64,000 nt of DNA from Candidatus Poribacteria bacterium (GTDB lineage Bacteria; Poribacteria; WGA-4E; WGA-3G). Shown here piece by piece: positions 17,996 through 55,122 of the stretch. Positions within the stretch are counted from its first letter, which is position 1; the number at the start of each line of letters is the position of its first letter. Made by a program: the position numbers and the translations under genes. Below the pieces are notes generated by a model. It was not told the origin of the DNA. It did no database searches and saw only the letters and a list, made by a program, of their open reading frames with translations. The stretch is taken from positions 37,514 to 101,513 of the forward strand of contig JAPOQK010000037.1 of the NCBI GenBank assembly GCA_026710795.1, in the 5' to 3' direction.

Positions 17996-18004
17996 GTTTC
18001 CTCC

Positions 18005-20101: not shown

Positions 20102-20104
20102 TTG

Positions 20105-20886: not shown

Positions 20887-21224
20887 GGGCACCCTTTTGG
20901 TTCTGTTTCATTCAATATATAGGTGTAAATTTAAGAACATACCTGTCATTCGCGGGATCAACGCACTCCAAGATAATTGTTGATTTCGCTAAGATTACAA
21001 TTTTGGGTTCCTGCATCATTAGGATTCTCTTAGACAAAGTTAACTTTTTGGAATATATTGTTTGGTTTTTCAATGTTTTCACACTTGAATAATATGATTG
21101 TTTGATGGCATTTATTGTAAATTTGCTTAGTAATTAATTGAATCAACTATTTGTAAAATATAATATAACACATATATTAACGTTTGTCAAATTATTTTTC
21201 TGTATATGTATTATTTATATCCGA

Positions 21225-21761: not shown

Positions 21762-21809
21762 TGTTTAGTCTCCATCATTTACTGAAAAGTCGAAGCACAG
21801 TAACTCATA

Positions 21810-23974: not shown

Positions 23975-24043
23975 GATGAATCTCCATATTCAGAGAACCT
24001 TGTTAGGGTTCGTTTTAAGTATGTGTGTCTCGTGTATGGCAAA

Positions 24044-24472: not shown

Positions 24473-24489
24473 TTTATACCTCCGACTAA

Positions 24490-37853: not shown

Positions 37854-39551
37854 TTATGTATTTCTCCGCTGTACAAAGCCTCGTAGACCAACTAATATGC
37901 CTAACGAGAGTAAAGCCACTAACGGAGGATATATAAATCTTTTGGATGAAGGCACAGGTTCAAGGACGAAGGAGTACCAACTTGAGATTACCCGTTTTGT
38001 GTCAACATCACCGTTTGCACCATCCCAAACTGAGAATGCGATTGGTACAAATTCACCTGGTTCTATTTGTAAATCTTTTTTATCATCGGTTTTTAATGCA
38101 CGTTTAATCCATAACCTATATTGTCCATCCGTGTATTTACCTTCTGCCTGAAGGTCGCCTTGAACTTCTTGAACTTCAGCTTTTGTGATTCCTTTTGCTG
38201 TAAGTTCTGTCACAGTGTCAGCAGCAGAAGCTTTCCATTGCCATAGATAGACAGCCTTCTTGCCACCCCAGAGAAAATAAGGTTTTGGGGCAGTTGGATC
38301 TTCTGGGATTTTGACTGGAAATTGGATTGCAATTGCGTCTTCGAAGGTTTTGCCAAGATCTTCGTCTTCCATTTCCTCAGTATTATTTGTCCGGTCATCC
38401 CATATAAAAAGAAAGGCAACTTCAGTATCATTGTAAAATGATTTTACATTTACTGAATCAATGGTTGGATTAAATTGACGCGGTTCTACAACGATCTGTC
38501 CAACCAGTGGAAAGTAACTTGCTTCAAGAGTCTCCCAAGCAGCATCATCTATTGTTGGTAATGTGTCTACTGTATATTGTGATCGAAGTGCATTTTTTCC
38601 GATTGCTGGTTCTGGTCTTTTTTCTGGTGCCAGAGATTTGACATAATTGGCAATATGCCAACTTTTTTCTTGAAACACTTTCATTGCTTCAGCATGTAAT
38701 TGTTTCTGTTCTTCATCTGCTAAACCTTCTGTCATCATATCTAAGATGTCATAAGCGTTTCCCATTTTTTCATCAAGTGAGTTAAATTCTTCATCCTCGG
38801 CATCAGTCATTTCAACCTTATTCTCCAATTGACCGTATCGTTGTGCTTCTTCTACACTTAAGCCAAAAGATGCATCTTCAAACATTGGCATAGCGGATCC
38901 TGCAATACCACCAATGAAACGTTTGTAAATATCCTCTGTACTGCTACCGCCTCTGAAATTCCAACTTTGTGCCAAATTTGCTGGCCAACTCTTAAAACCC
39001 CATTCATCTTGCAGGGTTGGTGCAGATGTACCATCACCGCGCCCCACGTTTCCGTGGCATTCAAAACACGCAAATTGGGCATAAAAGAACTTGCCTATTT
39101 CAACACTCTCTTCAGAATAAGGTATTTTACCTTCTAAACTAATTTCTATAGGAGGAGATTCATTCTCCTTAAAGCCTTCATAGAAGGTTTTGATATATGC
39201 CACAACTTCCCAACGTTCATCAGCACTTAGTGCAGATTCCCATTCTGGCATTGATGATCCGGGCATTCCTTTGGAAATGATGTCAAATAAATCTTTATCT
39301 GTAGGTAGTTCACCACCCGCTGTTGAACGAATTTTATATATTCCGCCAGTAAAATCTCTTGGTTGGGGTAGAAGGTTCTTTGCTGCACTGCCATCCCCGC
39401 GTCCTTCAACACCATGACAATGTGCGCAACTTTCCTCATACACCTCTTTTCCTTTTTCAGAGACTTCTGGCGCGTCTTGGGCATAAACCATGATATTAAC
39501 AGAGAATATGCTAAAGATAATGAAGGACAAGACATAAATTGATTTTCTCAT
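37854..39551 (-). CDS. Diheme c-type cytochrome with a large extra domain and C-terminal anchor
   Basis: It has a signal peptide, CAHCHG and CFECHG, and a C-terminal hydrophobic segment. Confidence 0.7.
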   Translation of the reverse strand: MRKSIYVLSFIIFSIFSVNIMVYAQDAPEVSEKGKEVYEESCAHCHGVEGRGDGSAAKNLLPQPRDFTGGIYKIRSTAGGELPTDKDLFDIISKGMPGSSMPEWESALSADERWEVVAYIKTFYEGFKENESPPIEISLEGKIPYSEESVEIGKFFYAQFACFECHGNVGRGDGTSAPTLQDEWGFKSWPANLAQSWNFRGGSSTEDIYKRFIGGIAGSAMPMFEDASFGLSVEEAQRYGQLENKVEMTDAEDEEFNSLDEKMGNAYDILDMMTEGLADEEQKQLHAEAMKVFQEKSWHIANYVKSLAPEKRPEPAIGKNALRSQYTVDTLPTIDDAAWETLEASYFPLVGQIVVEPRQFNPTIDSVNVKSFYNDTEVAFLFIWDDRTNNTEEMEDEDLGKTFEDAIAIQFPVKIPEDPTAPKPYFLWGGKKAVYLWQWKASAADTVTELTAKGITKAEVQEVQGDLQAEGKYTDGQYRLWIKRALKTDDKKDLQIEPGEFVPIAFSVWDGANGDVDTKRVISSWYSFVLEPVPSSKRFIYPPLVALLSLGILVGLRGFVQRRNT

Positions 39552-39553
39552 GA

Positions 39554-40315
39554 TTAATGTCCCACCTCACGGTATGAATAACCGGTATATTCGGATAAAA
39601 ATAGTATTACATCCCATATTTCATCTTTTTCAAGGTGGTCTTCCCAAATAGGCATTGCTGAATTCCACGGTGTGCCTTCTTTGGGCAATCCTGGTCCACC
39701 TTTACTAATTCGCCAAAAGAAGAAAGATTCTTGGAAATTTGGGATAATCCCTGGATCCTGAAAATTAGCCGGTAATGGATTTAACGCGTTAGCAAAATGT
39801 CCTTGTCCATCAAGATGATCTCCATGACAATAGAAGCAGTTATCATAATATACCTTTCTACCATTTTCAACGTGAGATTTGAATTCTTCTGGATCGTCTT
39901 TTTTCAAGTGCCGATAAGGATTTTCAGTATTTTCAAGGACTTCATCCTTGTATGTTAATTCTAAAGGTGGTGACGGATGTGCATCCCGTGGATCTCCTGG
40001 AGGACTTGCTTTTTGTGCTATATTTGTATAGGTATATCCTAAAACAAATAGAGGGATCAACACCACTAAAACTATCCTTCGTACTCTTTTATTTTCATCA
40101 ACAAGCGTTTCAATAATTGGACGGAGGAATTCACTTAATCTTGAGTCCTCAACAGATATGTGAACCAAGATGGCAATGAGAATTAATGCCATATACATTA
40201 CAATGACACTATTCGGTATAGGAACAGAGATTACACTCCCAACGATAAACCTTAAGAAGATCCAACATGCGATAAAGATTACAAGACATATTGTGAAAAG
40301 TGATGGTTTTCTCAT
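39554..40315 (-). CDS. Membrane-anchored monoheme cytochrome c
   Basis: It has two N-terminal helices and CFYCHGDH. Confidence 0.7.
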   Translation of the reverse strand: MRKPSLFTICLVIFIACWIFLRFIVGSVISVPIPNSVIVMYMALILIAILVHISVEDSRLSEFLRPIIETLVDENKRVRRIVLVVLIPLFVLGYTYTNIAQKASPPGDPRDAHPSPPLELTYKDEVLENTENPYRHLKKDDPEEFKSHVENGRKVYYDNCFYCHGDHLDGQGHFANALNPLPANFQDPGIIPNFQESFFFWRISKGGPGLPKEGTPWNSAMPIWEDHLEKDEIWDVILFLSEYTGYSYREVGH

Positions 40316-40358
40316 GGTCTACCTCCTTTACGATTGAACAATACTGAGATATAATGGA

Positions 40359-41888
40359 TTATTCAGGTGTTACTTCAGATGAATTATCTGTATTAATATC
40401 ACTTGCTTCTTCTGTTGTAACACCAGTTAAAGTACTTAAATATGCAAGAAGGTTTGCCATATCAACCACAGATAAATCATTGGGAAAGTTTGTTGGCATT
40501 GGTGATGTATCATGCAACTTTTTACCTGAAGCAACCATTATTATTGCTTCTTCAATATCAAACGGATCAAAACTTTCTTCACTTCCATCAACCATCAAAA
40601 CGATTTCGTCATCATCCATAGTACCTGACATATATTCACCAACGGTCTGTACGCCGTCAAAATCAGTAAGTGTCATCATCTTTTTCACATCAATCTTTGA
40701 TACGATGATTGTTTCCTCCCCAACCTTGAGTGTAACTGTGTCAACACTTTCCTCAACAATATCACCACTTATGGGAGAGTCAGAATCCATCGGTGTGATT
40801 GTTAGCGTGAAATATCCATTATCAATTAGATTTACAATGTCCTCTTCATCGATTGGTTCCTCATCAAAATCACTAAAGAGGATAGTGTGTTCCTGTTCAG
40901 TACCGTCTGCAGCTTTTGTTCGGACTATAACCTTATCAGTATCCTCCGATACAAGTGTTCCTTCATAGGTTATACCATTTGCTTTCACCTTGACTGTTCC
41001 ATAACCCGCGACAATTAATGCGTTAGGTAATAGTATTGACTCTTCAATATAACGCATACTGTTTAGTGCTGCAATGTCTGTTAATTCTGGTGCGGTAACA
41101 ACTTCAAAGTCTTCATTTACCTCACCTGCCTTTGGATTTTCAAGACCTTGCACAACATGACATGAAATACATGCAGCATCTATAAATACCTGTTTTCCTT
41201 TTTCAATATCTCCAGGAAGTAACGGTTCAAGTGCTTCAGCAGTTGTTCCCACATCCGCTCTATCTATCGGTTCGTCAAACGGTTCTGGATCAATTTCACC
41301 ACCTTGACTTTGTAGAAATGCTATGACTGCTTGAATCTCAACCTTAGAGAGTGCAATTGGATTTTTCCATATCTCTGGCATGATACTACCATATCCAGGG
41401 ACCAAATACTTACTCGGTTCATATAGAGATTCAATAAGGTATTGTTTTGCATTTAAACCGGGTTGTCTGGTCGCTGCGAGTACACCGATGTCTGTCAAAT
41501 CTGGACATCGTCCCTTTGGTGCTGAAGTGTCTAAGGTGTGGCAAGCACTACACTGTCCTTTGGTGTTAAAGATGCTTTCACCGATTTCAATTACTGCATC
41601 TGGGTCACTCCAATCTAATTCGGTTACTGTTCCAGTTCCAGTAGCTGTGCTTGGAACCCAAGCAGCTATAAGCGCAAAAAACCAGATAATAGACAAAGCA
41701 AATGTCAACAGTTTCATGACAATTCCCCATACAACCATATTTATCAGAACAGCAATAAGAAACCAGACAGACCAAGGCAGCAAATTTTCAGATCCAATTG
41801 GAAATGCTGGAGCCTTCGCAATAAATGCTATAAAACTCACTACCATTAATATTAGACCTGCGATTTTTATGATTGTATTTTTAGACAT
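40359..41888 (-). CDS. Membrane-anchored diheme cytochrome c with an acidic linker
   Basis: It has four N-terminal helices, CSACHT and CISCHV, and D/E-rich segments. Confidence 0.7.
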   Translation of the reverse strand: MSKNTIIKIAGLILMVVSFIAFIAKAPAFPIGSENLLPWSVWFLIAVLINMVVWGIVMKLLTFALSIIWFFALIAAWVPSTATGTGTVTELDWSDPDAVIEIGESIFNTKGQCSACHTLDTSAPKGRCPDLTDIGVLAATRQPGLNAKQYLIESLYEPSKYLVPGYGSIMPEIWKNPIALSKVEIQAVIAFLQSQGGEIDPEPFDEPIDRADVGTTAEALEPLLPGDIEKGKQVFIDAACISCHVVQGLENPKAGEVNEDFEVVTAPELTDIAALNSMRYIEESILLPNALIVAGYGTVKVKANGITYEGTLVSEDTDKVIVRTKAADGTEQEHTILFSDFDEEPIDEEDIVNLIDNGYFTLTITPMDSDSPISGDIVEESVDTVTLKVGEETIIVSKIDVKKMMTLTDFDGVQTVGEYMSGTMDDDEIVLMVDGSEESFDPFDIEEAIIMVASGKKLHDTSPMPTNFPNDLSVVDMANLLAYLSTLTGVTTEEASDINTDNSSEVTPE

Positions 41889-41914
41889 TTTTCTGTCCTC
41901 TAACTTGTCGTTTG

Positions 41915-43846
41915 TTAGTCATCACTTTCTACAGCCACTTCTGCTTCAATTGGTACTGCAACTTGCTTTTTCTTATCTCCCCAAAGTCCGAGCCAGAATA
42001 TAAATCCTACAAGAGCAAAGAATATAACCATAATGATTGAAACCATATTCACAGCACTGCTAAGTGACGGTGTAAATGCATCTACAGAGGTATCTTTCAT
42101 TACACCAAAGATATGCCATCCCTCGCGTAGGCCTGAACGTGCATATCCCATCAAACCCATCAGTGATGTAAATGTAATAGCGAGTAGTATTAGAACGTAC
42201 TGAGAACGATCTGACATCTGCCCCCAATTGATCGTTCCTGACATAGTGGCTTTTCGATACATGATTATATCAAGGACTGTTACGACAACCATTACACCGA
42301 GTGCTACTAAGACTTGCCACGGGGTCAGTACATTTACGCGTACATTAGTTTCGACTGTAAACCCAACAATACCGATAACTACGATTATAACCACACCTAA
42401 AAAGAAAATAGCTGAAATAAGGATATTTCCCACACCTTTCCAACCTACAATAGGTGTTTTGCCTGATCGTCTATAAAAGAGAAAACTTAGAAAGGTGGTT
42501 AAAATAACGATATTTACAACAGTATTTTTTGCTGTCATCAACCCGAAAAAGCCGAGATGTGGATGGTTTGCACCTCCCATCGCACTAAGCTCTGTTGCGG
42601 ATGATATTTTGGATAACGAACGTGGGGTCATCCAAATTGCTACACAGATAACAATTACTGTAATCATATAAGGACGAAACCGTGCATATATCTCCGCACC
42701 TTTAATACGTCCCATACCAGACCAAAGATAGTAGTTTGCTCCAATAAACAGCACCCCAATCATCACAGCTTGTAGGATAAATAACCACGAGAAGAGACTC
42801 CCCATCATGTTAATGCCCATCGTGTTATTGAAATCGTAGATTTCTTTACCTAACCAATAACCTGCAAATGGCAAAGGGATCAATCCGATCAATGCGATGA
42901 AATTTCCATTGTAACCCATCCAATCGTAATGTGCTTTATCCTCTTTGGATTTTGCCACGAGAAATCGAAATGCAGCATAGGCTGCTACAATAGATCCACC
43001 AAAAGCGATGTTGCCGATGAGTCGGTGTATATTGACTGGCATCCAGGTGAAGTTGTTTATGGCATCCCACACCGTACCCAAAAATTCACCTGTAGTTTCG
43101 TCATGGAGCGAGATTACAGTTGCATCAACCTTTGCTGCGGCTTCGGCTGCAGTTAACTCAGGATCCTGGGCTAACATCTCAGCCACCATCTGTTCCTTAT
43201 TAAAATCTGGTAAGTTTTCCTTGGTAGAATCTGATAACTTCTTGAACTGTGTTGCGGGACTCGTCTGATAAGTAAGCCAAGTGTTTGACACAAACATAAT
43301 CGCTGTGCCCCAGATGTTTAAGAGCACACCGAGGAAAAGGTGTACCCATTTAAACCTACCCTTCATCTTATCCCAACCGTAGTAATAGATGTAGAGTGTA
43401 AAGGTTTCACCGAAGAACAGTATGACGTAAAAAATCATCGTAGGACCGAAGATTCCGCTTAGCTTGCTCAATACTTTGGGGTAGCACCATACTAAAACAA
43501 AGACGAGAACACCACCAAGTAAGGCAGTTGTTGAAAATGCTCCCATACAGAGTTTGATGAACTCATATGCCATTCGGTCATACCGTTCTTCCTTGGTTTT
43601 CCAACCGATGAATTCAATGATAACAGCAAACATCGGCACACCGAGGATAAATGAACCAAACAACAGATGAAGTTGTGCAGCTATCCAGGCAGCATTGCGG
43701 CTTCCTATAAGAGGAAACGGACGGTATTCCTCATCAGTCATGTCTTGTGCGAATGCAGGTACTACTGCAAATAAGACAAAACCCAGCATCACAAGTGCTA
43801 ATATGAGATATATTCTCTTTAATGTATGAGAAGAACAACAACGCAT
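41915..43846 (-). CDS. Cytochrome bd-like protein (CydA superfamily), no adjacent CydB
   Basis: It aligns by eye with E. coli CydA at the heme b558 region (AAQLHLLFGSFILGVPMFAVIIEF vs AMYHFLFVPLTLGMAFLLAIMET) and at GETFTLYIYYYGWDKMKG...FVSNTWLTYQ vs ESTFVGLFFFGWDRLGK...LVANGWMQNP. At 643 aa it has extra C-terminal helices. Confidence 0.75.
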   Translation of the reverse strand: MRCCSSHTLKRIYLILALVMLGFVLFAVVPAFAQDMTDEEYRPFPLIGSRNAAWIAAQLHLLFGSFILGVPMFAVIIEFIGWKTKEERYDRMAYEFIKLCMGAFSTTALLGGVLVFVLVWCYPKVLSKLSGIFGPTMIFYVILFFGETFTLYIYYYGWDKMKGRFKWVHLFLGVLLNIWGTAIMFVSNTWLTYQTSPATQFKKLSDSTKENLPDFNKEQMVAEMLAQDPELTAAEAAAKVDATVISLHDETTGEFLGTVWDAINNFTWMPVNIHRLIGNIAFGGSIVAAYAAFRFLVAKSKEDKAHYDWMGYNGNFIALIGLIPLPFAGYWLGKEIYDFNNTMGINMMGSLFSWLFILQAVMIGVLFIGANYYLWSGMGRIKGAEIYARFRPYMITVIVICVAIWMTPRSLSKISSATELSAMGGANHPHLGFFGLMTAKNTVVNIVILTTFLSFLFYRRSGKTPIVGWKGVGNILISAIFFLGVVIIVVIGIVGFTVETNVRVNVLTPWQVLVALGVMVVVTVLDIIMYRKATMSGTINWGQMSDRSQYVLILLAITFTSLMGLMGYARSGLREGWHIFGVMKDTSVDAFTPSLSSAVNMVSIIMVIFFALVGFIFWLGLWGDKKKQVAVPIEAEVAVESDD

Positions 43847-43916
43847 ATCTTTTTCTCACTTATTAGGAACATCTTCAACAGAAAACATACTTTATATAAA
43901 TACAGTATAGAAAAAT

Positions 43917-44684
43917 CTACTTTTTCTTTGGTTTCTTGAAATCAGTGCTTTTGAAGTCAACTGAAATATCTCCAGTTGCTGGTACTTCAACTGTTGTGTT
44001 AGCAGAACCAAGGTCTTCATGCCATGCAATCACACGTGCTCTACCTGCCGGAACATCTTTTATGGTATATTTACCTGCATCTGATGATTTTTCATAATCA
44101 TCTGGACTAATATAGTTGTCCTTCTCATCCTTTTGACCGGTTACAGTATAATAGTTGCTATCAACAGCAACGATATAGCCAGACATCCATGCATGAATAT
44201 CACAAGTCAACTTGATTGCTTCTGCTTTGGTAATTGTATATGGGTAGGTTTTGCCTTTCGATGCAATCTGCACATTTGGAGCTTCATTTTTCTCTGCATG
44301 TGAGTGAACATTGTGTGCTACTGGATCACTGGAAGTGACAGTAACTGTCACACCGACTGGAACAACAAGAACATGAGGAAGATACCGACATCCCACCTGA
44401 TCAACTTTTGGATTTTCTTTTGGCATCTTTAGTTCTTCTCTTGCACGAGTGCGCACGGAAATCACTACATTCTGAATACCTTTTCCTTTTGACACTACAA
44501 GTGCTTCTGATTTGGCACCTTCTGTAGCAGTAATGCAGTGTTGTTCCTGTGTATTGATTGTAAGTGCAGCACGAGCAGGGACATCACCTTCATAGGTGAC
44601 TGTACCTGTGATGTTTCCTGCGAAGGCAATACTTGTCATCGTAAATAAAATAAGTAAAGCAAGTATGGTCTTTAGACTTTTCAT
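43917..44684 (-). CDS. Secreted cupredoxin-like protein (paralog) with a CarboxypepD_reg-like domain
   Basis: It has a signal peptide, AHNVHS ... CDIHAWM, and a GKYTIKDVPAGRARV beta-sandwich. Confidence 0.55.
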   Translation of the reverse strand: MKSLKTILALLILFTMTSIAFAGNITGTVTYEGDVPARAALTINTQEQHCITATEGAKSEALVVSKGKGIQNVVISVRTRAREELKMPKENPKVDQVGCRYLPHVLVVPVGVTVTVTSSDPVAHNVHSHAEKNEAPNVQIASKGKTYPYTITKAEAIKLTCDIHAWMSGYIVAVDSNYYTVTGQKDEKDNYISPDDYEKSSDAGKYTIKDVPAGRARVIAWHEDLGSANTTVEVPATGDISVDFKSTDFKKPKKK

Positions 44685-44762
44685 CGTTTTTCTCCTTAAA
44701 ATAAATCTTTTTATTATATTAACACTTTAAGTTTTGAAATGGCAAACCCTAAAAAACAAACA

Positions 44763-44778
44763 TCACGGATATCCGTGT
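44763..44778. promoter_or_regulatory. Palindromic site TCACGGATATCCGTGT (15 of 16 symmetric), about 80 bp upstream of the cupredoxin gene
   Basis: It shares the 14 bp perfect palindrome CACGGATATCCGTG with the site at 50801..50816. Confidence 0.5.
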
Positions 44779-44782
44779 CTGT

Positions 44783-45139
44783 TTAAGGTCGGAAGGTTTT
44801 CTTTATATAACCGAGAAGTTCCTGTTGTTCTTTTGGATTGAGGTAATAGTGAAACGCAGGCATATCGTTCTTGCCACCACTTATGCTTTTAAGAAGCTGT
44901 GTATCGTCGTGCGTAATCCACAAATCACTATCAGTCAGATCTGCAGGATCTAATTTTTTGAAACGACCAATACGTCCATTCCCTTCACCACTGTTTCCAT
45001 GACATCCGGCACAGTATCTGGCATATTTGTATTCAACATCTGCCTGATATTTTGTGCGTGGGTCAATCTGTTTGCATAACCATATAAATCCGTTTATCCA
45101 AACAAATATCATGACGATTATAATCAGTAGATGTTTCAT
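44783..45139 (-). CDS. Membrane-anchored monoheme cytochrome c
   Basis: It has one N-terminal helix and CAGCHG. Confidence 0.7.
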   Translation of the reverse strand: MKHLLIIIVMIFVWINGFIWLCKQIDPRTKYQADVEYKYARYCAGCHGNSGEGNGRIGRFKKLDPADLTDSDLWITHDDTQLLKSISGGKNDMPAFHYYLNPKEQQELLGYIKKTFRP

Positions 45140-45185
45140 ACAAAACGGATACCCTGTGTAGTGATGAATGGAATCCGTTGCTACA

Positions 45186-48100
45186 CTAACGTCCTAAAGA
45201 GATTAAGTAATCACGAACTAACCTAATCTGTTTTTCTGCGTCATCATCCGCATAACCTTCAACTGGCATGTGTTGTCCCCCGACGAGTGGCCACGCCTGT
45301 GGCATCGCGGTACCGCGTTGGAATTGCTGTGGATTTTTCATCCAATCAATTAACCAATCCGCTTTAAGCCGCTGCTTCGCCAAGGATAAATCAGGTCTAC
45401 CCGCCTTGTCGCTACCTGCAGGTATTACTTCACCTTGTGAAGGATGACATGAATCGCATTTTAGTTCGTCAAAAATCTGTTTACCAGTTCGTAATTCTGC
45501 CTGAGTAGATGTAGGAAGTTCAATGGTCTCATAAGGGAAGGGTTCATTGTCTAAGGCAGAGAAGTATTTGATAAGTGTGGTTGCATCTTGATCCGACATA
45601 TCAAATGTTGGCATCCGCACTTTAAGTCCATATCGTATCTCCGAAGGATTCTTGAGGAAATCAAACAACCAATTAGGATAAACTCTTGCACCTTGCGCTT
45701 GCAGTGGTGGTGGTGATAGTTGCTTGGTAGTAATTGGATCTAAACCTTCGTGAGCAGTAATTACATTGCTATAGTCTCCACCTTCTCCCTCAATTACGTG
45801 GCATCCCGTACAGTTGTATCTTTTGACGACCCGTCTGCCAGCATCAATCTGGTTCTTTCTCTCAACACGATGAGATTCAACTGCATGATCATATATATAA
45901 TTTAATGGGTATGGTTGAGGTTGGAAACTCTTCAATAACACAGCGATAGACTTTGCTTCGTCATGATCAATCTGGAACACAGGCATACGTGAAACAATGC
46001 GGCGCGTTTGATAACGACGTGGGTCTGTGATTTTGCCAATAGTCCAACCGTGCCAACTATGTTCAACATCTTCCTCTAAAGTATCTCCAAAGTCAAGTTC
46101 GTCTGACAATTTTGCGCCAAATTCTCCAAGATCAGCACCTACCTTGGATTCATTCTCAAACCCTGGTATTTCGTGACAACCGAAACAACCATAAGTCCTA
46201 ACAAGTTTTTCACCTTCCTGCTTATCCTCTTCACCAATTGAATCAGAAATTGGTGATGGAGTTTGCTTCTGTAAACTCATTAAATATGCAACTACATTGT
46301 CAAGTTCACTATTGCTCAAACGCAAACTTGGCATTGAGGTGTCAGGATCATAATCTCTCGGATTTTCAATCCAACTCCGTAGATAACTCGGTTTGACCTT
46401 TGTACCTACACTGTCCAGAGCTGGCGCAAAATCGCTCCCTAAACCATCAACAGCATGGCATGATAGACATCCCACCGTTTTTACTGTCTCTTCACCTGCA
46501 CTTATATCACTTTCAGATTTCGAATATGTCCCTTGTGAAGCATCTATGGACTGATCGGTAAAATCTTTCAGATAGGCGGTAATAGATTTCACTTCATCAA
46601 CTATACGTAAAACATCATCTTTGGCATAAGGATATGTTGTTCCATCATCTGTTTTCAGAAGATAACCATTATCCGTTTCAGTGACAATACCAGTACGTTG
46701 TCCACCATTTTTGAAGTAGACAAGTTGGGTCATGCCATCTACTGGGAAGAAGTTAGGCATTGTCGTTTCCGGTAAATATGCTTCCGGTTTTTTAATCCAT
46801 TTTTCAAGCCAATCACCATCTTGCACTTTGCTGCCAATTTTGCTAAGCGATGGTCCAACCTTCTGAATTTTATCAATTGAACTATATCCTTCTACAGCAT
46901 GACACCCATGACATCCGAGATCTTCAAAAAGATCCATCCCTTTGGTTAGATTGGGTGCATAATCCACTGGCGCGTTTGTTTCAGAATTAACCCCGAAATC
47001 TAACTTCATTACACCATCATGACACCGTCGACAATTGGATTCCATGTATCCTTCTAATTCGTCCGATTTTCTTCCAGTGTGTTCATCTAATCCCAAGACA
47101 GGCGTTAACCAATATTCTGAATGTGTTAGTGCGTGTGCGGCTTTTGCGGTTAATCCGTGTCCTTGTCCACCGTGGCATGGTGTACAACCAAATTTTTCTA
47201 CTGGATGTTTCGCAAGAAGGACATCACGATGTGGGTGTGTCTGAAGGACTGAACGATAACCAGTCTCATAAGAAATTTCTACCTCACCAAATACATCCGG
47301 GTCAGTAAAGGTTAGGACACCATCCTCAGACAATTCATATTCATCAGCTTCTGCATCAAAACCATCAATTACTATTGTTTCATTACCGGGTTTTACCTTC
47401 GGGTGTTTGAGTTGGTGTTTGACAAGGTCTTCACCGTCACCTTCTATTTCAAATGTTTCTTCGGCATCGGGACCATAGCCACTTCTATCGACAGAGAAAT
47501 GACATGTTGCACACCGATCCGCGGTATAATCAAACTCTTCAAGATAATACTGTACGATTGTTCTGGTTTCTCGAAATGGATTTTCAAGAAGACTACCGAG
47601 GAAGGTACGTTTGATTCCACCTACATCTGCTAACTTCTCTTCAAGACGTGTGATTGCTTCAAGTTGTGCTTTATTCGCTTCGAGCGTGACAAGAGATTCT
47701 TGGGCAGTTGTTATTGCATTTGCAATTGTATCATCTGTAGGTTTATATTTTTGAGATATAAGATAGGTAGAAAGGGCATTAGTGGGATCACCACTGTTCT
47801 GGTAAAAATCGGCAAGGGTTTTGTTCGCATCAGCATATTCAACTTGTGCTGTTAGAACATTGGTAGTTAATTCACCTTCAATTCTTTTTTCGTATTCGTC
47901 TAATTTCTCTTTCCACTTTTCAACAGTATCATTATGCGTACCATGGGCTTCATGAAGGCTATGTTGGTATTTATAATTAATAGCATCTGATTTGCTTTGC
48001 TCAAACTTGCGTTCTTGCATTGCCTCATCCAATGCTACCTTTTTCGTTTCAACGATTTTCTCCAAATTTCCTAACTCTTTTGTATCTATCTGAGGTGCGG

Positions 48101-48338
48101 AGGGTTTTTCAGGTGGGTTCTGCTTTGCATGCTCCAATTCTGCCTTTGTCTTATCATATTCATATTGGTAAAACTGCTGCTGGATTTCCTTCCAAGGACG
48201 ACGCGTAATCATCTCATCCCAGAAACCCCATATCGTCACCAACCCTAATAGAGCTGATAATATAAAGAACAAAGCAGAATAAGATTTATTTTCTGCGGGA
48301 ATCTCTTTTTTGCTCCTCACGAAATGTATAACCTCCAA
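45186..48338 (-). CDS. Octaheme c-type cytochrome (bc-complex-associated), N-terminal anchor plus coiled coil
   Basis: It has eight CxxCH motifs (CATCHF, CTPCHG, CRRCHD, CHGCHA, CLSCHA, CFGCHE, CTGCHV, CDSCHP) across 1050 aa. Confidence 0.8.
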   Translation of the reverse strand: MEVIHFVRSKKEIPAENKSYSALFFILSALLGLVTIWGFWDEMITRRPWKEIQQQFYQYEYDKTKAELEHAKQNPPEKPSAPQIDTKELGNLEKIVETKKVALDEAMQERKFEQSKSDAINYKYQHSLHEAHGTHNDTVEKWKEKLDEYEKRIEGELTTNVLTAQVEYADANKTLADFYQNSGDPTNALSTYLISQKYKPTDDTIANAITTAQESLVTLEANKAQLEAITRLEEKLADVGGIKRTFLGSLLENPFRETRTIVQYYLEEFDYTADRCATCHFSVDRSGYGPDAEETFEIEGDGEDLVKHQLKHPKVKPGNETIVIDGFDAEADEYELSEDGVLTFTDPDVFGEVEISYETGYRSVLQTHPHRDVLLAKHPVEKFGCTPCHGGQGHGLTAKAAHALTHSEYWLTPVLGLDEHTGRKSDELEGYMESNCRRCHDGVMKLDFGVNSETNAPVDYAPNLTKGMDLFEDLGCHGCHAVEGYSSIDKIQKVGPSLSKIGSKVQDGDWLEKWIKKPEAYLPETTMPNFFPVDGMTQLVYFKNGGQRTGIVTETDNGYLLKTDDGTTYPYAKDDVLRIVDEVKSITAYLKDFTDQSIDASQGTYSKSESDISAGEETVKTVGCLSCHAVDGLGSDFAPALDSVGTKVKPSYLRSWIENPRDYDPDTSMPSLRLSNSELDNVVAYLMSLQKQTPSPISDSIGEEDKQEGEKLVRTYGCFGCHEIPGFENESKVGADLGEFGAKLSDELDFGDTLEEDVEHSWHGWTIGKITDPRRYQTRRIVSRMPVFQIDHDEAKSIAVLLKSFQPQPYPLNYIYDHAVESHRVERKNQIDAGRRVVKRYNCTGCHVIEGEGGDYSNVITAHEGLDPITTKQLSPPPLQAQGARVYPNWLFDFLKNPSEIRYGLKVRMPTFDMSDQDATTLIKYFSALDNEPFPYETIELPTSTQAELRTGKQIFDELKCDSCHPSQGEVIPAGSDKAGRPDLSLAKQRLKADWLIDWMKNPQQFQRGTAMPQAWPLVGGQHMPVEGYADDDAEKQIRLVRDYLISLGR

Positions 48339-48403
48339 GTCATTCGATAATAAGAGAACACATTTACAATAAACCGTTTTTGTCTAAAAAGAAGTCATAG
48401 AAA

Positions 48404-49270
48404 TTAAATGTTGAACCAAGGTGACACCCAAATATACTTCACATTCAATGCCAAACGTAAGATCATTTTTATCGGCAATGAAAGCATTGATAAAAACAAA
48501 AATGAAACGATAACATATCGAATCATTCCAAGTTCTTGTAAAAATTTACTACTTTTACATTTCCAGATATAAAATATTGGTCCGAGTGCGAAATAACCTG
48601 CGACAATAGCAAAACCGAAGAAATTTGCAGTCATATCATCACGAATACCGAAGAGATACGACAAATTTACGTTTGTTAATGGAACGAGTTTATGTGGATC
48701 CCAATATTCCCATGGCATAAATATGTTCCAACCTGGTCCTCTCAAGAAAGTACCTACTATCATCAAAACTATCCATAGTATTATGAACCCGAAACTAAAC
48801 ACAGCAAGTGCAAACGGTCGTTCTTTGATTGTATAGTATCCCTTTCCTTTAGGGTTGATATCAATGTACGGAATAGCGATAAGACCAACGATTATAAGTC
48901 CGGGTAATACAACACCTGCTATCCACGGATCAAAGTAGACCAACATCTCTTGTAAGGCGAGAAAATACCAAGGAGCCTTGGATGGGTTCGGTGTTTTGGC
49001 GGGATCACTCATCTCCTCAAGTGGTGCATCAATCATAATTGACCAAACACCCAAAATCAACATGATGATAATTGCACAGATAAACTCATTGCGACATAGA
49101 TATGGCCACACGTAAACCTTATCATTCAACGCAGCATCGGATGGAACACCTGTTCGATCAGTTTGCCGTGCCTGCTTATATGACAACCAGATAAAGAAAG
49201 GTATTAAAAAAAGCATAGCCAAAATCGGAACATTATCGGGTTTCGTTATCAGCAGTAGTAAATTGTCCAT
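48404..49270 (-). CDS. Cytochrome b C-terminal part (subunit IV / PetD-like, extended)
   Basis: It has the PEWY-equivalent KAPWYFLALQEML plus additional helices. Confidence 0.7.
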   Translation of the reverse strand: MDNLLLLITKPDNVPILAMLFLIPFFIWLSYKQARQTDRTGVPSDAALNDKVYVWPYLCRNEFICAIIIMLILGVWSIMIDAPLEEMSDPAKTPNPSKAPWYFLALQEMLVYFDPWIAGVVLPGLIIVGLIAIPYIDINPKGKGYYTIKERPFALAVFSFGFIILWIVLMIVGTFLRGPGWNIFMPWEYWDPHKLVPLTNVNLSYLFGIRDDMTANFFGFAIVAGYFALGPIFYIWKCKSSKFLQELGMIRYVIVSFLFLSMLSLPIKMILRLALNVKYIWVSPWFNI

Positions 49271-49382
49271 ATCTAAATCCGTTCTCCTTCAAAAAGGGAT
49301 ATTACAATCTTCTAAAACTTATACCATGTGAGTAGTCTTACGTATATATATTACTGACAATACTATTTACATTTGCCATAGA

Positions 49383-50153
49383 TTATAGAGGTCCGGATAT
49401 TCCACCATCTTTACGAACACGCCAAAAATGTAGTGCCATCAACAGACTTGCTACCAAGGGGACAGCAATACAATGCAATATATAGAACCTTAACAACGTT
49501 GACGGTCCGACGATAGTACCTCCAAGCAATGCAAATCTGACATCGTTTGCTTGTGTAATGTCTGGAGGGGCAAATGGACCTTCATGTCCTAATACTGGTG
49601 TAGCACGTGCCATATTCGTTCCAACAGTTACTGCCCAATATGCCAATTGGTCCCATGGAAGCAAATAACCAGTGAAACTCAGAAAGAATGTGATTAGCAA
49701 TAAAATCACACCCACAGCCCAGTTGAACTCACGTGGTTTTTTGTATGAACCTGTCAAAAAAACCCTAAACATGTGGAGCATCACAGAAATTACCATACCG
49801 TGTGCAGCCCAACGGTGCATATTGCGTAGAAGCATCCCGAAGGGAATGTCAAATTCAAGTGCCTGTACATCTCGAAAAGCATATTCGGCAACAGGTCTAT
49901 AGTAGAACATGAGCAAAACCCCTGTGACGGCTGTCACAAGGAACATAAGGAAGGTAATACCACCCATACACCAAGTAAAACGGAAGTTTAAAGCGTGGCG
50001 AGAAATTCGGGGAGGGTGCAGGTGCAGCCACACGTTTTGCAAAACTTGTAATGTGTAACGGCGACCGGTTTTTTCGTATCCATGACGAAATATTGATTTC
50101 CAAATATCAGAATTTGTTATCTTATCTTTTAGCCCTTTATGTTCTTCGTTCAT
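49383..50153 (-). CDS. Cytochrome b6-like (N-terminal four-helix heme b part of a split cytochrome b)
   Basis: It has the His ligands in HRWAAHGMV and HMFRVF and four helices. Confidence 0.85.
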   Translation of the reverse strand: MNEEHKGLKDKITNSDIWKSIFRHGYEKTGRRYTLQVLQNVWLHLHPPRISRHALNFRFTWCMGGITFLMFLVTAVTGVLLMFYYRPVAEYAFRDVQALEFDIPFGMLLRNMHRWAAHGMVISVMLHMFRVFLTGSYKKPREFNWAVGVILLLITFFLSFTGYLLPWDQLAYWAVTVGTNMARATPVLGHEGPFAPPDITQANDVRFALLGGTIVGPSTLLRFYILHCIAVPLVASLLMALHFWRVRKDGGISGPL

Positions 50154-50213
50154 TATTATCCTTTTCAGTCCGATGACGCATTACATCTCATCAGACGCAA
50201 TCTTCCCCTTAAG

Positions 50214-50699
50214 TTAGACTTTTAAAGATGCACCAGGGTCACCCCATTGACCTTTTTCACCCAAAAACTTTACAGATTTATCAATTTGCAATTGACCATC
50301 CTCTGCCAAAGTTATCTTTACTCGTTCAAGAGGACGTGGTGCCGGACCTTCATAGTTGATACCGTCCCGGTCGAAACCGCTTCCGTGGCAGGGACATTTA
50401 AATTTATTTTCAGAGGAGAGCCAACGCGGGGTACATCCTAAGTGGGTACAGGTCGTAAGTAGTGCGTAAAATTCCCCATCTTCGCGTCGGACTATCCAAA
50501 CCCCAAAAGGTTCTTTTTTATATTTTTCGCTGACGCTACCCGAAGGATATTCTGCTGGAAAACCCGCTTTAAAGATAGATGACGGTTCATACAGAACACG
50601 TGGATATAAGTATCTAACTAAACCTGGTCCAAAACATAAACCAAGTGCAGCCGTGAAACTTCCCCAACCGAGTGCTGTGAAAAAATTTCGTCGAGACAA
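50214..50699 (-). CDS. Rieske [2Fe-2S] protein with Tat signal
   Basis: It has SRRNFF and CTHLGC...CPCHGS. Confidence 0.85.
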   Translation of the reverse strand: MSRRNFFTALGWGSFTAALGLCFGPGLVRYLYPRVLYEPSSIFKAGFPAEYPSGSVSEKYKKEPFGVWIVRREDGEFYALLTTCTHLGCTPRWLSSENKFKCPCHGSGFDRDGINYEGPAPRPLERVKITLAEDGQLQIDKSVKFLGEKGQWGDPGASLKV

Positions 50700-50800
50700 C
50701 GTTAATGCTCCCTATTTATGAAACACATAATTAGTTTTGCAAAAGTATATCACAGAAATAGATTCTTTGCATGAATTTTGACTGCTTAAAAATTGCATTA

Positions 50801-50816
50801 TCACGGATATCCGTGA
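50801..50816. promoter_or_regulatory. Perfect 16 bp palindrome TCACGGATATCCGTGA, about 100 bp upstream of the Rieske gene
   Basis: It is read directly from the sequence. It is the second copy of the motif seen at 44763..44778. Confidence 0.55.
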
Positions 50817-50930
50817 ATTTTAGCTCTTATATTTCAAGTGTAATTATCGTTTATTTATTCTTTCAACACTATAGGATAGTCCACGATATAATGAATAATA
50901 ATAAGTTTTGCTTCACCATACGTAACAGAA

Positions 50931-50950
50931 AATGGACGGGTAAAAACCCG
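50931..50950 (-). terminator. Intrinsic terminator of the upstream secreted-protein gene
   Basis: GGACGGGT-TTTT-ACCCGTCC is a perfect 8 bp stem. On the minus strand it is followed by AUUUUCUGUU, about 45 nt after the stop. Confidence 0.55.
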
Positions 50951-50994
50951 TCCTATATAGGTGTAATATAACAACTACAAAATACTTATGATGT

Positions 50995-53484: not shown

Positions 53485-53673
53485 TTCTCCATTACCTCTT
53501 GCAAAAGTGCAAATTTATACTACACAGAAGTATAACCAAGTCAAATTTTAACAATTAGTTTGATGTTTCGTGTTTAGTCAATGTAATCGGTAGAATCTCT
53601 ATTTCATATATTAGAAAACCTGCACCTGAACAACAATTATTGTCCAAGTACAGGTTTCAGAATGGAAGTTGAA

Positions 53674-55122
53674 TTAGAATATTCCAGTAATCACTTCACC
53701 TTTTACCAATTCACGTGGTTGGTCTAAGTGATTCATCACGATAGTGTGCGGATCAATACCAAGCGTATGGTAAATCGTAGCGAGTATATCTCGTGGATGC
53801 ACTGGCTTTTCAAGTGGTGTTGAACCTGTCGCATCGGATTTTCCGTAAACTTGTCCACCTTTTACTCCAGCACCGGCAATTAGACCTGTATAGCAATAGG
53901 GCCAATGGTCTCGTCCATCAGGAGCGTTACCATTACCAGATGTGCTAATACCCATACGGGGGGAACGTCCAAATTCACCAATAGCGAGCACAAGTGTTTC
54001 TTCTAACATGCCCTTCTGATCTAAATCTTCAAGCAATGAAGAAACGGCACTATCTAACTTAGGACAGTGTAGGTTTTTCAACGGTCCGAAGTTCGCAGCG
54101 TGGGTATCCCATGCTGTAGTATTTGGATTGCCGTTAGCGACAGAGGGCCAATTCACCTGTACGAAACGGGTACCAGCTTCTACCAATCGCCGCGCGAGCA
54201 GCGCACTCTGACCGAATGTATGACGACCATATTTGTCGCGCATTTCATCCGATTCCTGTGCCAAATCAAACGCTTTACGTGCCTTCTGCGACAGAATGAG
54301 ATTATATGCTTTTTCATAATATTCGTTCAGGGCATAGGAATCTGCTACCTTGTCAATTTCTGGCATGTTGGCGTTAATCGTTTCAAGAAGCGTTTTTCGA
54401 CGCTGTAACCGCATCGGTGGCACTTCTGGACGAAGTGATAGATCGTCAAGATTGATCTCTTTATTCGGATCCTGGAAGAGAAAATATGGGTCATACGCTC
54501 TACCAAGGAACCCAGCATTTCCACCTTTACCGATGATGCCACTCTCCTGCATTGGACGCGGAAGTTGCACTGCCGACAACATCGGTTCATCTGGTGGTCT
54601 GAACTTAGCGATATGTGCTGCAGCATTTGGATGATCTGCAGGTGAAGGTGGATCAAGTTGTCCTGAAGGAGCAACCTTGTCCGGTGTTTCTCCTGTAACC
54701 ATCTGATACATTGCAGCTGTGTGATTGAATAATCCAGCCGGCGTATAACTTACGGAACGGATAAGACATGCTTTGTCCATCTGTTGTGCCAAACGCGGCA
54801 TTGTTTCTGATAACTGAATACCCGGAACATTCGTTGGAATCGGATTAAACTCACCACGAATGTTTGACGGAGCATCAGGTTTTGGATCCCAGATATCAAT
54901 GTGACTCGGTCCACCTTGCAAGAAAAGAAGAATGACAGAATTGGCTTTGCCCCAACCGTTTAGAGGCTTCGCGGGGTCAACTGTCGTGCTTGCCTTGGCT
55001 TGGAGTGACAATACTTGTGGTAGGCTAATGCCCAGCATCGCCGCGCCACCCACGCGGAGAAATTCTCTACGTGAGAACCCATCACATAATCTTCCGGGTG
55101 CTTGTGGTAACGATATCATCAA
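53674..55122 (-). CDS. DUF1501 family protein (sulfatase-like fold) with Tat signal
   Basis: It has SRREFLRVGGAAMLG. It is the typical partner of the DUF1549/DUF1553 gene. Confidence 0.85.
   Translation of the reverse strand: MMISLPQAPGRLCDGFSRREFLRVGGAAMLGISLPQVLSLQAKASTTVDPAKPLNGWGKANSVILLFLQGGPSHIDIWDPKPDAPSNIRGEFNPIPTNVPGIQLSETMPRLAQQMDKACLIRSVSYTPAGLFNHTAAMYQMVTGETPDKVAPSGQLDPPSPADHPNAAAHIAKFRPPDEPMLSAVQLPRPMQESGIIGKGGNAGFLGRAYDPYFLFQDPNKEINLDDLSLRPEVPPMRLQRRKTLLETINANMPEIDKVADSYALNEYYEKAYNLILSQKARKAFDLAQESDEMRDKYGRHTFGQSALLARRLVEAGTRFVQVNWPSVANGNPNTTAWDTHAANFGPLKNLHCPKLDSAVSSLLEDLDQKGMLEETLVLAIGEFGRSPRMGISTSGNGNAPDGRDHWPYCYTGLIAGAGVKGGQVYGKSDATGSTPLEKPVHPRDILATIYHTLGIDPHTIVMNHLDQPRELVKGEVITGIF

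What the first reader, a model, noticed from the sequence alone, without database searches (positions are those of the whole stretch)
44763..50816. Same 14-16 bp palindrome (T)CACGGATATCCGTG(A) occurs twice, each about 80-100 bp upstream of a respiratory gene start
A perfect 16-mer TCACGGATATCCGTGA lies upstream of the Rieske gene (50801-50816). A 15 of 16 copy lies upstream of the cupredoxin and bd-like segment (44763-44778). I found no other copies in the window. A long perfect palindrome at promoter distance in two places within one functional cluster suggests a shared dimeric transcription-factor operator. The half-site orientation (TCAC...GTGA) does not fit CRP/FNR.
Basis: seen in the sequence. 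Interest (0 to 1): 0.6.

Follow-up and report, generated by a model that had tools for sequence, protein, structure and literature searches.

The report
Conserved respiratory-promoter operator in Poribacteria
A 16-base palindrome sits at a fixed distance upstream of two respiratory-operon promoters in uncultivated sponge symbionts (Poribacteria) and is unchanged across about 29 species, so it is almost certainly the binding site of a still-unidentified transcription factor.

Summary
TCACGGATATCCGTGA lies at 50801-50816, and a 15/16 copy lies at 44763-44778. No other copy within 3 mismatches occurs in the window.

The window comes from a Candidatus Poribacteria genome. All the genes concerned are on the minus strand. 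Site 2 lies 101 nt upstream of a Rieske/cytochrome b/multihaem-c operon. Site 1 lies 78 nt upstream of a cupredoxin-like/bd-like-oxidase operon.

In 43 non-identical promoter sequences from about 29 Poribacteria species, 15 of the 16 positions never vary, while the flanks cannot be aligned between clades. The palindrome ends 17 nt before the -35 hexamer and 41-42 nt before an extended -10. This puts its centre near -60.5. The same spacing holds in four independent promoter contexts.

The palindrome stays with the downstream promoter when other genes are inserted upstream of it. Outside Poribacteria the 16-mer occurs mostly inside coding sequence.

The best reading is an operator for a dimeric transcription factor in a class-I-like position. 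Whether it activates or represses, and which factor binds it, remain unknown. No regulator gene lies next to it. It is a new member of a known kind, of moderate interest.

The parts
50801..50816 (.). Operator copy 2, a perfect 16-bp palindrome TCACGGATATCCGTGA upstream of the Rieske/cytochrome b operon promoter
   Evidence: It is unchanged upstream of the Rieske homologue in 19 loci with 78-100% amino-acid identity.
50788..50792 (-). T-tract (TTTTT) 9-13 nt after the palindrome. Its conserved TTT is centred about 19 bp from the dyad centre. It is probably an UP-element-like or alpha-CTD contact just upstream of the -35.
   Evidence: TTT at +10 to +12 carries 1.6-2.0 bits over 43 unique sites. 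The atp promoters that lack the palindrome have the T-tract too, so it is a general promoter feature.
50744..50783 (-). Candidate core promoter of the Rieske operon. It has a weak -35-like AGTCAA (50783-50778), a -10-like TATTTC (50760-50755; TATATT in close relatives) and an alternative extended -10 TGaTATACT (50752-50744).
   Evidence: Read from the sequence and from the alignment with relatives. In the higher-GC clade the same position holds a clear TTGATC-17-TGcTATAAT. The promoter and the start site are inferred, not mapped.
50214..50699 (-). Rieske [2Fe-2S] gene, the first gene of the operon Rieske / cyt b (50153-49383) / cyt b C-terminal part (49270-48404) / multihaem cyt c (48338-45186) / cyt c (45139-44783)
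   Evidence: Pfam and NCBIfam matches.
44763..44778 (.). Operator copy 1, 15/16 (ACACGGATATCCGTGA on the - strand), upstream of the promoter of the cupredoxin-like/bd-like oxidase operon
   Evidence: It has 0-1 mismatch upstream of the p255 homologue in 22 loci with 51-100% identity. The only variation is the outermost base.
44716..44745 (-). Core promoter of the p255 operon: -35 TTGCCA, an 18-nt spacer, and an extended -10 TGtTAATAT
   Evidence: The promoter scan lists it with TG before the second hexamer. It is conserved in the low-GC clade and replaced by TTGATY-17-TGcTATCAT in the other clade.
44751..44756 (-). T-tract (TTTTTT) between operator 1 and the -35. In this genome it also follows an extended hairpin (UAAACA..core..UGUUUG) that could terminate the upstream operon.
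   Evidence: (-17.5 kcal/mol for the 66-nt stretch).
37854..44684 (-). The downstream operon that operator 1 presumably controls: p255 cupredoxin-like (44684-43917), bd-like oxidase subunit (43846-41915), cytochromes c (41888-40359 and 40315-39554), and a cyt c/EB_dh haem-b protein (39551-37854)
   Evidence: The gene order is conserved in the related loci. The extent of the operon is inferred from tight spacing and shared strand.
50934..50953 (-). A separate intrinsic terminator of the upstream PPC-domain gene (GGACGGGTTTTTACCCGTCC followed by ATTTTCTGTT). It shows that operator 2 is not needed as that gene's terminator.
   Evidence: -15.9 kcal/mol, z = -3.4.

Best explanation
The palindrome is the operator of a homodimeric, helix-turn-helix-type transcription factor specific to sponge-type Poribacteria. 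Its two half-sites, TCACGG and CCGTGA, are centred 10 bp apart, so they face the same side of the helix. The factor binds at about -68 to -53 (centre about -60.5) of two sigma-70-type promoters. From there it co-regulates the Rieske/cytochrome b/multihaem-c operon and the cupredoxin-like/bd-like oxidase operon. The neighbouring aa3-type oxidase genes carry no copy and lie outside this control. The fixed spacing is 17 nt to the -35 and 41-42 nt to the -10, with an A/T tract centred about 19 bp from the dyad. This matches a class-I arrangement, in which a bound dimer touches the alpha-subunit C-terminal domain of RNA polymerase docked on the T-tract. I therefore favour activation or modulation through RNA polymerase contact over simple occlusion. 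What is shown: the sequence, its invariance, its position relative to conserved promoter hexamers, and its restricted distribution. What is inferred: the transcription start sites, protein binding, the sign of regulation and the signal, which is plausibly oxygen or redox state.
For: (1) Both copies are real and unlikely by chance.
(2) Clusters retrieved by protein, not by motif, keep the 16-mer at both positions although their flanks differ: L005 (96% cyt b identity) and L006 (89%).
Of these, 34 come from 29 Poribacteria species-representative assemblies. 32 of the 34 lie upstream of a Rieske or p255 homologue.
(4) Over 43 unique sites the information content is 2.0 bits at 15 positions and 1.6 bits at the first, against 0-0.4 bits in the flanks.
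(5) The -10 hexamer starts 41-42 nt after the motif in four independent promoter contexts: Rieske, p255, the atp operon in L019, and a CopD/radical-SAM promoter in L010.
(6) The motif stays with the p255 promoter when 0.8-4 kb of other genes separate it from the upstream cytochrome c gene, as in L024, L049, L088, L114 and L128.
(7) The genes upstream of the Rieske site differ between lineages (PPC protein, aldolase, phosphoglycerate mutase, lectin-like protein), yet the motif and the promoter persist.
(8) Non-Poribacteria hits lie almost all inside long ORFs.
(9) More distant relatives with the same gene cluster lack the motif, as expected for a lineage-specific factor and site pair.
Against: No cognate regulator was found. 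No transcription-factor gene is adjacent in the window or in any of about 45 related loci. No start site or binding data exist. In the higher-GC clade the core promoters are close to consensus (TTGATC-17-TGcTATAAT) and would not obviously need an activator. Near-total invariance of 16 positions is unusual for an operator. It is partly a retrieval bias, because most loci were found by exact match. In some lineages the flanks extend the palindrome, up to 38 bp in L088, which hints at an additional hairpin role.
Confidence: 0.78

Rival explanations
1. It is a transcription-factor operator, but for a repressor or anti-activator that works from -60 by interfering with alpha-CTD or UP-element use, as GalR does at the gal OE operator centred at -60.5. 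It is not an activator site.
For: In the higher-GC clade the core promoters are near consensus with an extended -10, so they should be strong on their own. Promoters without the palindrome, such as atp in 8 loci, have the same T-tract, -35 and extended -10 layout. The palindrome therefore looks like an add-on control element on an otherwise self-sufficient promoter.
Against: No second operator that would allow looping lies within the loci at up to 4 mismatches. The low-GC clade Rieske promoters, including the one in this window, have a poor -35 (AGTCAA or GGACAA), which is typical of activator dependence. Most repressors overlap the core promoter.
Confidence: 0.25
2. It is an RNA hairpin acting as an intrinsic terminator or insulator that stops read-through from upstream genes. 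It has a 6-bp stem and an ATAT loop, followed by a T-tract.
For: The terminator scan flags both copies. At window site 1 the flanks extend the stem (UAAACA/UGUUUG) directly before U6. Several lineages have much longer complementary flanks: L088 with 38 bp, also L040, L010, L090 and L091.
Against: Terminator stems covary freely, whereas here 15 of 16 positions never change across lineages with 51-100% protein identity. Many sites have no stem extension, and their T-tract starts 8-9 nt after the stem; these include all low-GC Rieske sites and L019. Window site 2 lies 120 bp after a proper terminator of the upstream gene. The motif follows the downstream promoter, not the 3' end of the upstream gene, when genes are inserted. 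Sense and antisense folding energies are similar, -12.4 against -11.9 kcal/mol. The spacing to the -35 and -10 is fixed.
Confidence: 0.06
3. It is a site recognised at the nucleic-acid level by something other than a transcription factor. Candidates are a methyltransferase or restriction target (the core contains GATATC), a recombinase or transposase hairpin site, or a REP/MITE-type repeat.
For: The core contains the GATATC palindrome. Two N6/N4 DNA methyltransferase genes are in the window. IS605-type and DDE transposase genes occur near some copies.
Against: GATATC is neither depleted nor enriched in the window: 15 observed against 18.4 expected. Only two or three copies per genome were seen, always at a promoter, whereas REP or MITE families have many copies. 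There are no terminal repeats or target duplications, and the flanks are unrelated. The atp promoter in L019 gained the motif in place, upstream of a promoter it shares with other species, not by insertion of a cassette.
Confidence: 0.03

Closest known systems
Class-I CRP (CAP) sites, e.g. lac P1, with a palindrome centred at -61.5
   Same: A dyad of two 5-base half-sites separated by 6 bases (16-bp core). The centre lies about 60-61 bp upstream of the inferred start. An A/T tract lies about 19 bp from the dyad centre, where alpha-CTD docks in CAP/alpha-CTD/DNA complexes (this last point is from my memory of Benoff et al. 2002 and was not checked here).
   Different: The half-site is TCACG, not TGTGA, so the reading direction is opposite. 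No CRP/FNR-family gene was located. Several of the target promoters are near consensus. The factor and its ligand are unknown.
GalR operator OE of the E. coli gal promoters, centred at -60.5 (LacI family)
   Same: A 16-bp palindromic operator at the same promoter position. There it modulates RNA polymerase through alpha-CTD rather than by occlusion.
   Different: LacI-family operators have a central CG and a GTnnAAnCGnTTnnAC-like pattern. GalR also uses a second operator inside the gene for looping, and no second site was found here.
ComA boxes and other NarL/FixJ (LuxR-type HTH) response-regulator sites, TTGCGG-N4-CCGCAA
   Same: A 6-4-6 dyad with a CGG-N4-CCG core, placed upstream of the -35 of the promoters it activates.
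   Different: The outer bases differ (TCA against TTG). ComA needs a third half-site. No two-component genes lie near the Poribacteria sites. This resemblance is recalled from memory only.
Rex operators (TTGTGAA-N4-TTCACAA), which control respiratory genes in Gram-positive bacteria
   Same: A palindromic site shared by terminal-oxidase and, in some species, ATP-synthase promoters. The regulon is small and redox-related.
   Different: The half-site orientation is opposite (GTGA...TCAC against TCAC...GTGA). Rex sites usually overlap the core promoter and repress. The consensus is not matched.
The identical 16-mer next to an IclR-family regulator gene in Streptomyces/Kitasatospora
   Same: Exactly the same sequence, intergenic, conserved in 12 species. 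It lies 16-20 bp after an IclR-family gene and upstream of a CoA-transferase III gene.
   Different: It occurs in an unrelated phylum, next to unrelated target genes and in a different position relative to them. No IclR homologue was found in the 470 kb of Poribacteria DNA held here. It is only a lead to a possible factor family.

Membership tests
Palindromic operator of a dimeric transcription factor | Dyad symmetry with half-sites about one helical turn apart | tested here: met
   TCACGG/CCGTGA have centres 10 bp apart. Site 2 is a perfect 16-bp palindrome and site 1 matches 15/16.
Palindromic operator of a dimeric transcription factor | Conserved in orthologous regulatory regions while the flanking sequence diverges (phylogenetic footprint) | tested here: met
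   43 unique sites from about 29 species carry 2.0 bits at 15/16 positions, against 0-0.4 bits in the flanks. This includes L005 and L006, which were retrieved by protein.
Palindromic operator of a dimeric transcription factor | Fixed position relative to the core promoter | tested here: met
   The motif ends 17 nt before the -35, and the -10 starts 41-42 nt after the motif, in four independent promoter contexts. The promoters are predicted, not mapped.
Palindromic operator of a dimeric transcription factor | A cognate protein binds it and changes transcription | not testable with these tools
   No regulator gene is adjacent. Gel-shift, DNA-affinity or reporter work is needed.
CRP/FNR-family binding site | Consensus TGTGA-N6-TCACA (CRP type) or TTGAT-N4-ATCAA (FNR type) | tested here: not met
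   The half-site is TCACG, which differs from both consensus sequences by direct reading.
CRP/FNR-family binding site | Centre at -41.5 or near -61.5/-71.5 relative to the start site | tested here: inconclusive
   The centre is about -60.5 relative to the predicted -10. For the low-GC Rieske promoter an alternative -10 would put it near -71. No start site has been mapped.
CRP/FNR-family binding site | A CRP/FNR-family regulator is encoded in the genome | not tested
None is present in the 64-kb window.
Rex operator | Consensus TTGTGAA-N4-TTCACAA | tested here: not met
   The half-site orientation is opposite, by direct reading.
   The site lies wholly upstream of the -35. The only Rrf2 gene in the window (9810-10247) heads a cysteine operon and has no motif.
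Intrinsic (Rho-independent) terminator | A GC-rich stem directly followed by a U-tract | tested here: inconclusive
   This is met at window site 1 through an extended stem. It is not met at most sites, where the T-tract starts 8-9 nt after a 6-bp stem.
Intrinsic (Rho-independent) terminator | It belongs to the 3' end of the upstream gene, and only the structure, not the stem sequence, is conserved | tested here: not met
   The sequence is invariant. The element stays with the downstream promoter after insertions of 0.8-4 kb. Site 2 follows a separate terminator.
REP/MITE-type dispersed repeat | Many copies per genome in varied intergenic contexts | tested here: not met
   There are 2 copies in the 64 kb. 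Of 34 Poribacteria hits, 32 lie at two orthologous promoters. The counts per genome are lower bounds because the scan was truncated.

The most novel reading that the evidence does not exclude
The palindrome defines a very small, very high-information regulon (about 32 bits per site) run by a Poribacteria-specific factor of unknown family. This regulon ties the Rieske/cytochrome b complex to the unusual bd-like oxidase as one switchable respiratory branch, separate from the aa3 oxidase. It is still growing by in-place gain of sites at other bioenergetic promoters: ATP synthase in one species, and a CopD/radical-SAM haem-related pair in another. In some lineages the same element also serves as a terminator hairpin between the two operons.
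Probability: 0.3. Interest if true: 0.6.

Novelty: new member of a known kind. Interest (0 to 1): 0.45.

Why it matters
Poribacteria are uncultivated sponge symbionts, and I found no published description of any of their regulatory elements. The 14-mer core occurs in no paper of the library. A search for Poribacteria together with regulator and binding-motif terms found nothing relevant.

A site this well defined gives an experimental handle that needs no cultivation. Candidate regulators can be expressed heterologously and tested on the 16-mer. The two operons can also be followed in sponge metatranscriptomes.

It also shows which parts of the respiratory chain the cell treats as one unit. 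The Rieske/cytochrome b complex and the bd-like oxidase are controlled together, and the aa3 oxidase is not. That is a testable statement about how these symbionts cope with the fluctuating oxygen inside sponges.

The kind of element, a promoter-proximal palindromic operator, is entirely conventional.

Tried and rejected
1. Terminator reading. I rejected it as the main function because the sequence is invariant, the element stays with the downstream promoter, and many sites have no stem extension or adjacent U-tract. A secondary role is kept open for some sites.
2. ATP synthase as a conserved third target. One species has the motif at its atp promoter (L019). Eight other Poribacteria atp promoters do not have it within 4 mismatches near the operon start.
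3. Search for more targets in JGI metagenomes with motif-N17/18-TTG. It returned 14 loci. Only two are Poribacteria-type, and both are the known Rieske and p255 promoters.
4. Adjacent regulator. None was found upstream of the Rieske promoter in eight lineages, in the insertions between the two operons, or in the annotated ORFs of the window. The exception is a distant Rrf2 gene. One XRE-type gene (L065) sits beside a transposase and is not conserved.
5. The orthologous CopD/radical-SAM promoter in this window (20561-21224). It has no copy of the motif.
6. Restriction-modification idea. GATATC is not depleted.
7. Known RNA families. There is no Rfam match in 39000-54000.
8. A short upstream ORF ending in the palindrome in Streptomyces. 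This idea was wrong: the apparent ribosome-binding site is the coding end of an IclR-family gene.
9. Literature search for the sequence. No relevant paper turned up.
10. Half-site search. TCACGGAT occurs only inside the two sites, so there are no isolated half-sites in the window.


Full report
**Observation.** The perfect 16-mer TCACGGATATCCGTGA is at 50801-50816, and TCACGGATATCCGTGT is at 44763-44778. Nothing else in the 64 kb comes within 3 mismatches. Shuffled sequence gives 0.21 such matches on average. The 14-base core is exact at both places. Isolated half-sites (TCACGGAT) occur nowhere else in the window.

**Local anatomy.** All genes in this part of the window are on the minus strand. 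Reading that strand, the order is as follows:
- a PPC-domain gene (53484-50995) with its own strong terminator hairpin at 50953-50934;
- palindrome 2;
- Rieske (50699-50214), cytochrome b (50153-49383), a subunit-IV-like cytochrome b C-terminal part (49270-48404), a 1050-aa multihaem cytochrome c (48338-45186) and a 118-aa cytochrome c (45139-44783);
- palindrome 1;
- a 255-aa protein with a weak amicyanin (cupredoxin) match, here called p255 (44684-43917);
- a bd-like oxidase subunit I homologue (43846-41915) and further c-type cytochromes.

Further downstream lie an aa3-type cytochrome c oxidase operon and its assembly genes. These carry no copy of the motif. Palindrome 2 ends 101 nt before the Rieske start codon, and palindrome 1 ends 78 nt before the p255 start codon.

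**Origin.** The cytochrome b protein is found with an identical sequence on contigs from sponge metagenomes, including Ircinia variabilis. Its 89%-identical relative is annotated Candidatus Poribacteria. Neighbouring genes (PSCyt2/PSD1, DUF1501, sulfatases) fit that assignment.

**Comparative test.** Two orthologous clusters were fetched by protein identity, not by motif: L005 (96% cyt b identity) and L006 (89%). Both carry the palindrome at both positions, and their flanking sequences are different.

Of these, 34 come from 29 Poribacteria assemblies. In 32 of the 34 the motif lies upstream of a Rieske homologue or a p255 homologue. Together with the window, L005 and L006, that makes 19 Rieske loci (78-100% identity) and 22 p255 loci (51-100% identity). 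Where one chunk holds both promoters, the second site has 0 or 1 mismatch.

The other 86 hits are scattered over many phyla, and almost all of them lie inside long open reading frames. One of those 86, L045, carries only a generic 'metagenome' title and was at first counted as possibly Poribacteria; its copy lies inside a 459-aa ORF and looks like chance. One group is an exception and is described under 'Lead to the factor'.

More distant relatives have the same Rieske/cyt b/multihaem-c cluster (cyt b 74-78% identical: L007, L151, L153, L154). They have no copy within 4 mismatches. The element is therefore specific to one lineage and is not a general feature of this gene cluster.

**Architecture.** The 43 non-identical sites were aligned on the motif and oriented toward the downstream gene. 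Information content is 2.0 bits at 15 of the 16 positions and 1.6 bits at the first (T, or A at the p255 site of the low-GC clade). The flanks carry 0-0.4 bits.

Downstream of the motif a conserved promoter appears:
- a T-tract whose TTT at +10 to +12 is nearly invariant;
- a -35 hexamer starting at +18 (TTGATC or TTGATT in the higher-GC clade, TTGCCA at the low-GC p255 promoter);
- a 17-18 nt spacer;
- an extended -10 (TGcTATAAT, TGcTATCAT or TGtTAATAT) whose hexamer starts at +41 or +42.

With the -10 hexamer at -12 to -7, the palindrome spans about -68 to -53 and is centred near -60.5. The conserved TTT is centred 19 bp from the dyad.

The low-GC Rieske promoter, which includes the one in this window, has only a weak -35-like AGTCAA. 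It has two candidate -10 elements about 10 bp apart: TATTTC (TATATT in close relatives), and TGaTATACT. The centre would then be near -61 or near -71, on roughly the same face of the helix.

**Independent recruitments.** Two Poribacteria hits lie at other genes with the same spacing. In L019 the motif precedes TTGCAT-17-TGcTAAAAT and the atpZ/atpI/atpB ATP-synthase operon. In L010 it precedes an extended -10 TGtTATAAT upstream of a CopD/UPF0093 and radical-SAM/SPASM gene pair.

Eight other Poribacteria atp promoters have the T-tract, TTGCAT and TGtTATAAT but no palindrome. The atp site is therefore a lineage-specific gain upstream of an existing promoter. The T-tract is a general promoter feature and not part of the operator. 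The window's own copy of the CopD/radical-SAM pair (20560-18797) has no motif upstream.

**Why not a terminator.** The palindrome can form a 6-bp stem with a 4-nt loop, and the simple scan flags it. At window site 1 the flanks lengthen the stem directly before U6. Some lineages have long extensions, up to a 38-bp palindrome in L088. A secondary hairpin role at some sites therefore cannot be excluded.

Several points argue against this as the main function:
- The stem sequence never covaries.
- Many sites have no extension, and their T-tract lies 8-9 nt after the stem.
- Site 2 follows a separate terminator.
- Sense and antisense folding energies are alike.
- The spacing to the promoter is fixed.
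- The motif stays with the p255 promoter when lipoprotein, HicA-like or transposase genes are inserted between it and the upstream cytochrome c gene.

**Other readings.** GATATC, the core of the motif, is not depleted in the window (15 observed, 18.4 expected). A restriction-modification explanation therefore has no support. No Rfam family matches the region. The copy number and the unrelated flanks exclude a REP or MITE repeat.

**Mechanism.** The evidence supports a sequence-specific DNA-binding dimer placed one fixed distance upstream of RNA polymerase. The geometry matches established class-I CRP architecture: a 5-6-5 dyad centred near -60.5, with an A/T tract 19 bp from the dyad just upstream of the -35. 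That comparison rests on my knowledge of CRP promoters and was not tested here.

This favours regulation through contact with the polymerase alpha subunit. I put activation at about 0.5 and repression or modulation from the same position (as GalR does at OE) at about 0.25. The near-consensus core promoters of the higher-GC clade argue for repression or modulation. The weak -35 of the low-GC Rieske promoter argues for activation.

The targets are a quinol-oxidising Rieske/cytochrome b complex and a bd-like oxidase branch, while the aa3 oxidase is excluded. This makes oxygen or redox state the most plausible signal, but that is inference only.

**Lead to the factor.** No regulator gene lies next to any copy. 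The window's only recognisable regulator, an Rrf2 protein at 9810-10247, heads a cysteine-synthesis operon and has no motif.

The identical 16-mer is conserved in 12 Streptomyces/Kitasatospora species. There it lies 16-20 bp after the stop codon of an IclR-family regulator gene and upstream of a CoA-transferase III gene. That is probably an independent operator. It is the only hint at a protein family that can read this sequence. No IclR homologue is present in the 470 kb of Poribacteria DNA held here.

**Novelty and score.** The element is a conventional kind of thing: a promoter-proximal palindromic operator. The sequence, its regulon and its host lineage appear to be undescribed. No paper in the library contains the core sequence, and none on Poribacteria regulation was found. 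I rate it a new member of a known kind, with interest 0.45.

**Limits.** No transcription start sites are mapped and no factor is identified. The genome scan was truncated, so regulon size per genome is a lower bound. Most sites were retrieved by exact match, which inflates the apparent invariance. The sites found independently of the motif (both sites in L005 and L006, and the second sites in L009 and L046) are also within one mismatch.

Noticed in passing
L093 3447-3462 (Streptomyces rectiverticillatus NZ_CP040752.1); also L015, L030, L061, L069, L071, L078, L094, L097, L119, L120, L125: The identical 16-mer is conserved in 12 Streptomyces/Kitasatospora species. It lies 16-20 bp after the stop of an IclR-family regulator gene (87-91% identical between species) and about 40 bp before a CoA-transferase family III gene. 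It is probably an independent operator.
   Followed up: partly
window 20821-20835: A 15-bp palindrome, ACGTCACAGTGACGT, lies in the unusually long (660 bp) intergenic region upstream of the CopD/UPF0093 and radical-SAM/SPASM gene pair. The orthologous pair in another Poribacteria genome (L010) carries the 16-mer operator and promoter instead.
   Followed up: no
window 28509-29378 (and 59199-59969): An N6/N4 DNA methyltransferase gene is embedded between cytochrome c oxidase subunit III genes inside the aa3 oxidase operon. A second such gene lies near the end of the window. No partner restriction enzyme was noticed.
   Followed up: no
window 17582-26424; L151 14054-15952; L153 8432-10357: A run of proteins carries the small PCP_red domain. 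It includes a 644-aa Usp + 3x PCP_red + rubredoxin-like protein (24490-26424) and three others. The run accompanies the respiratory cluster, and the large protein is also conserved next to the cluster in distant relatives that lack the palindrome.
   Followed up: no
L020, L040, L065, L110, L115, L123: about 50-150 nt after the motif: In the higher-GC clade the Rieske gene has a leader of about 100 nt. It contains a well-conserved block (ACTCGGATCGTGTCCTTTGCTTTTCACACGCCGTTTTAC) between the predicted start and the ribosome-binding site. This could be an RNA-level element.
   Followed up: no
L088 5432-5469; also L040, L010, L090, L091, L139: In some lineages the flanks of the 16-mer are complementary, with a purine-rich 5' side and a pyrimidine-rich 3' side. 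This extends the palindrome to as much as 38 bp. Other sites have no extension at all.
   Followed up: partly
L151 7109-7334; L153 672-907: Distant relatives lack the palindrome. They share a different conserved block (TTTGTCAAAGCAAAAATA) upstream of a TTGACA-type Rieske promoter. They also share a divergent gene for a 110-aa protein with a hydrophobic C-terminal stretch that looks membrane-spanning and has no Pfam match.
   Followed up: no
L114 2409-6155; L049 611-1924; L088 5626-6819; L128 4726-5838; L024 924-1145: In several species the gap between the two operons has taken up extra genes: lipoproteins of about 400 aa, a HicA-like toxin, and an IS605-type transposase. These insertions show that the two operons are separable units.
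   Followed up: partly
window 9810-12907: An Rrf2-family regulator gene heads an apparent cysteine/sulfur-carrier operon (PALP cysteine synthase, PAPS reductase, ThiS-like, JAB). It is the only recognisable transcription factor among the main ORFs of the window that were scanned against Pfam.
   Followed up: partly
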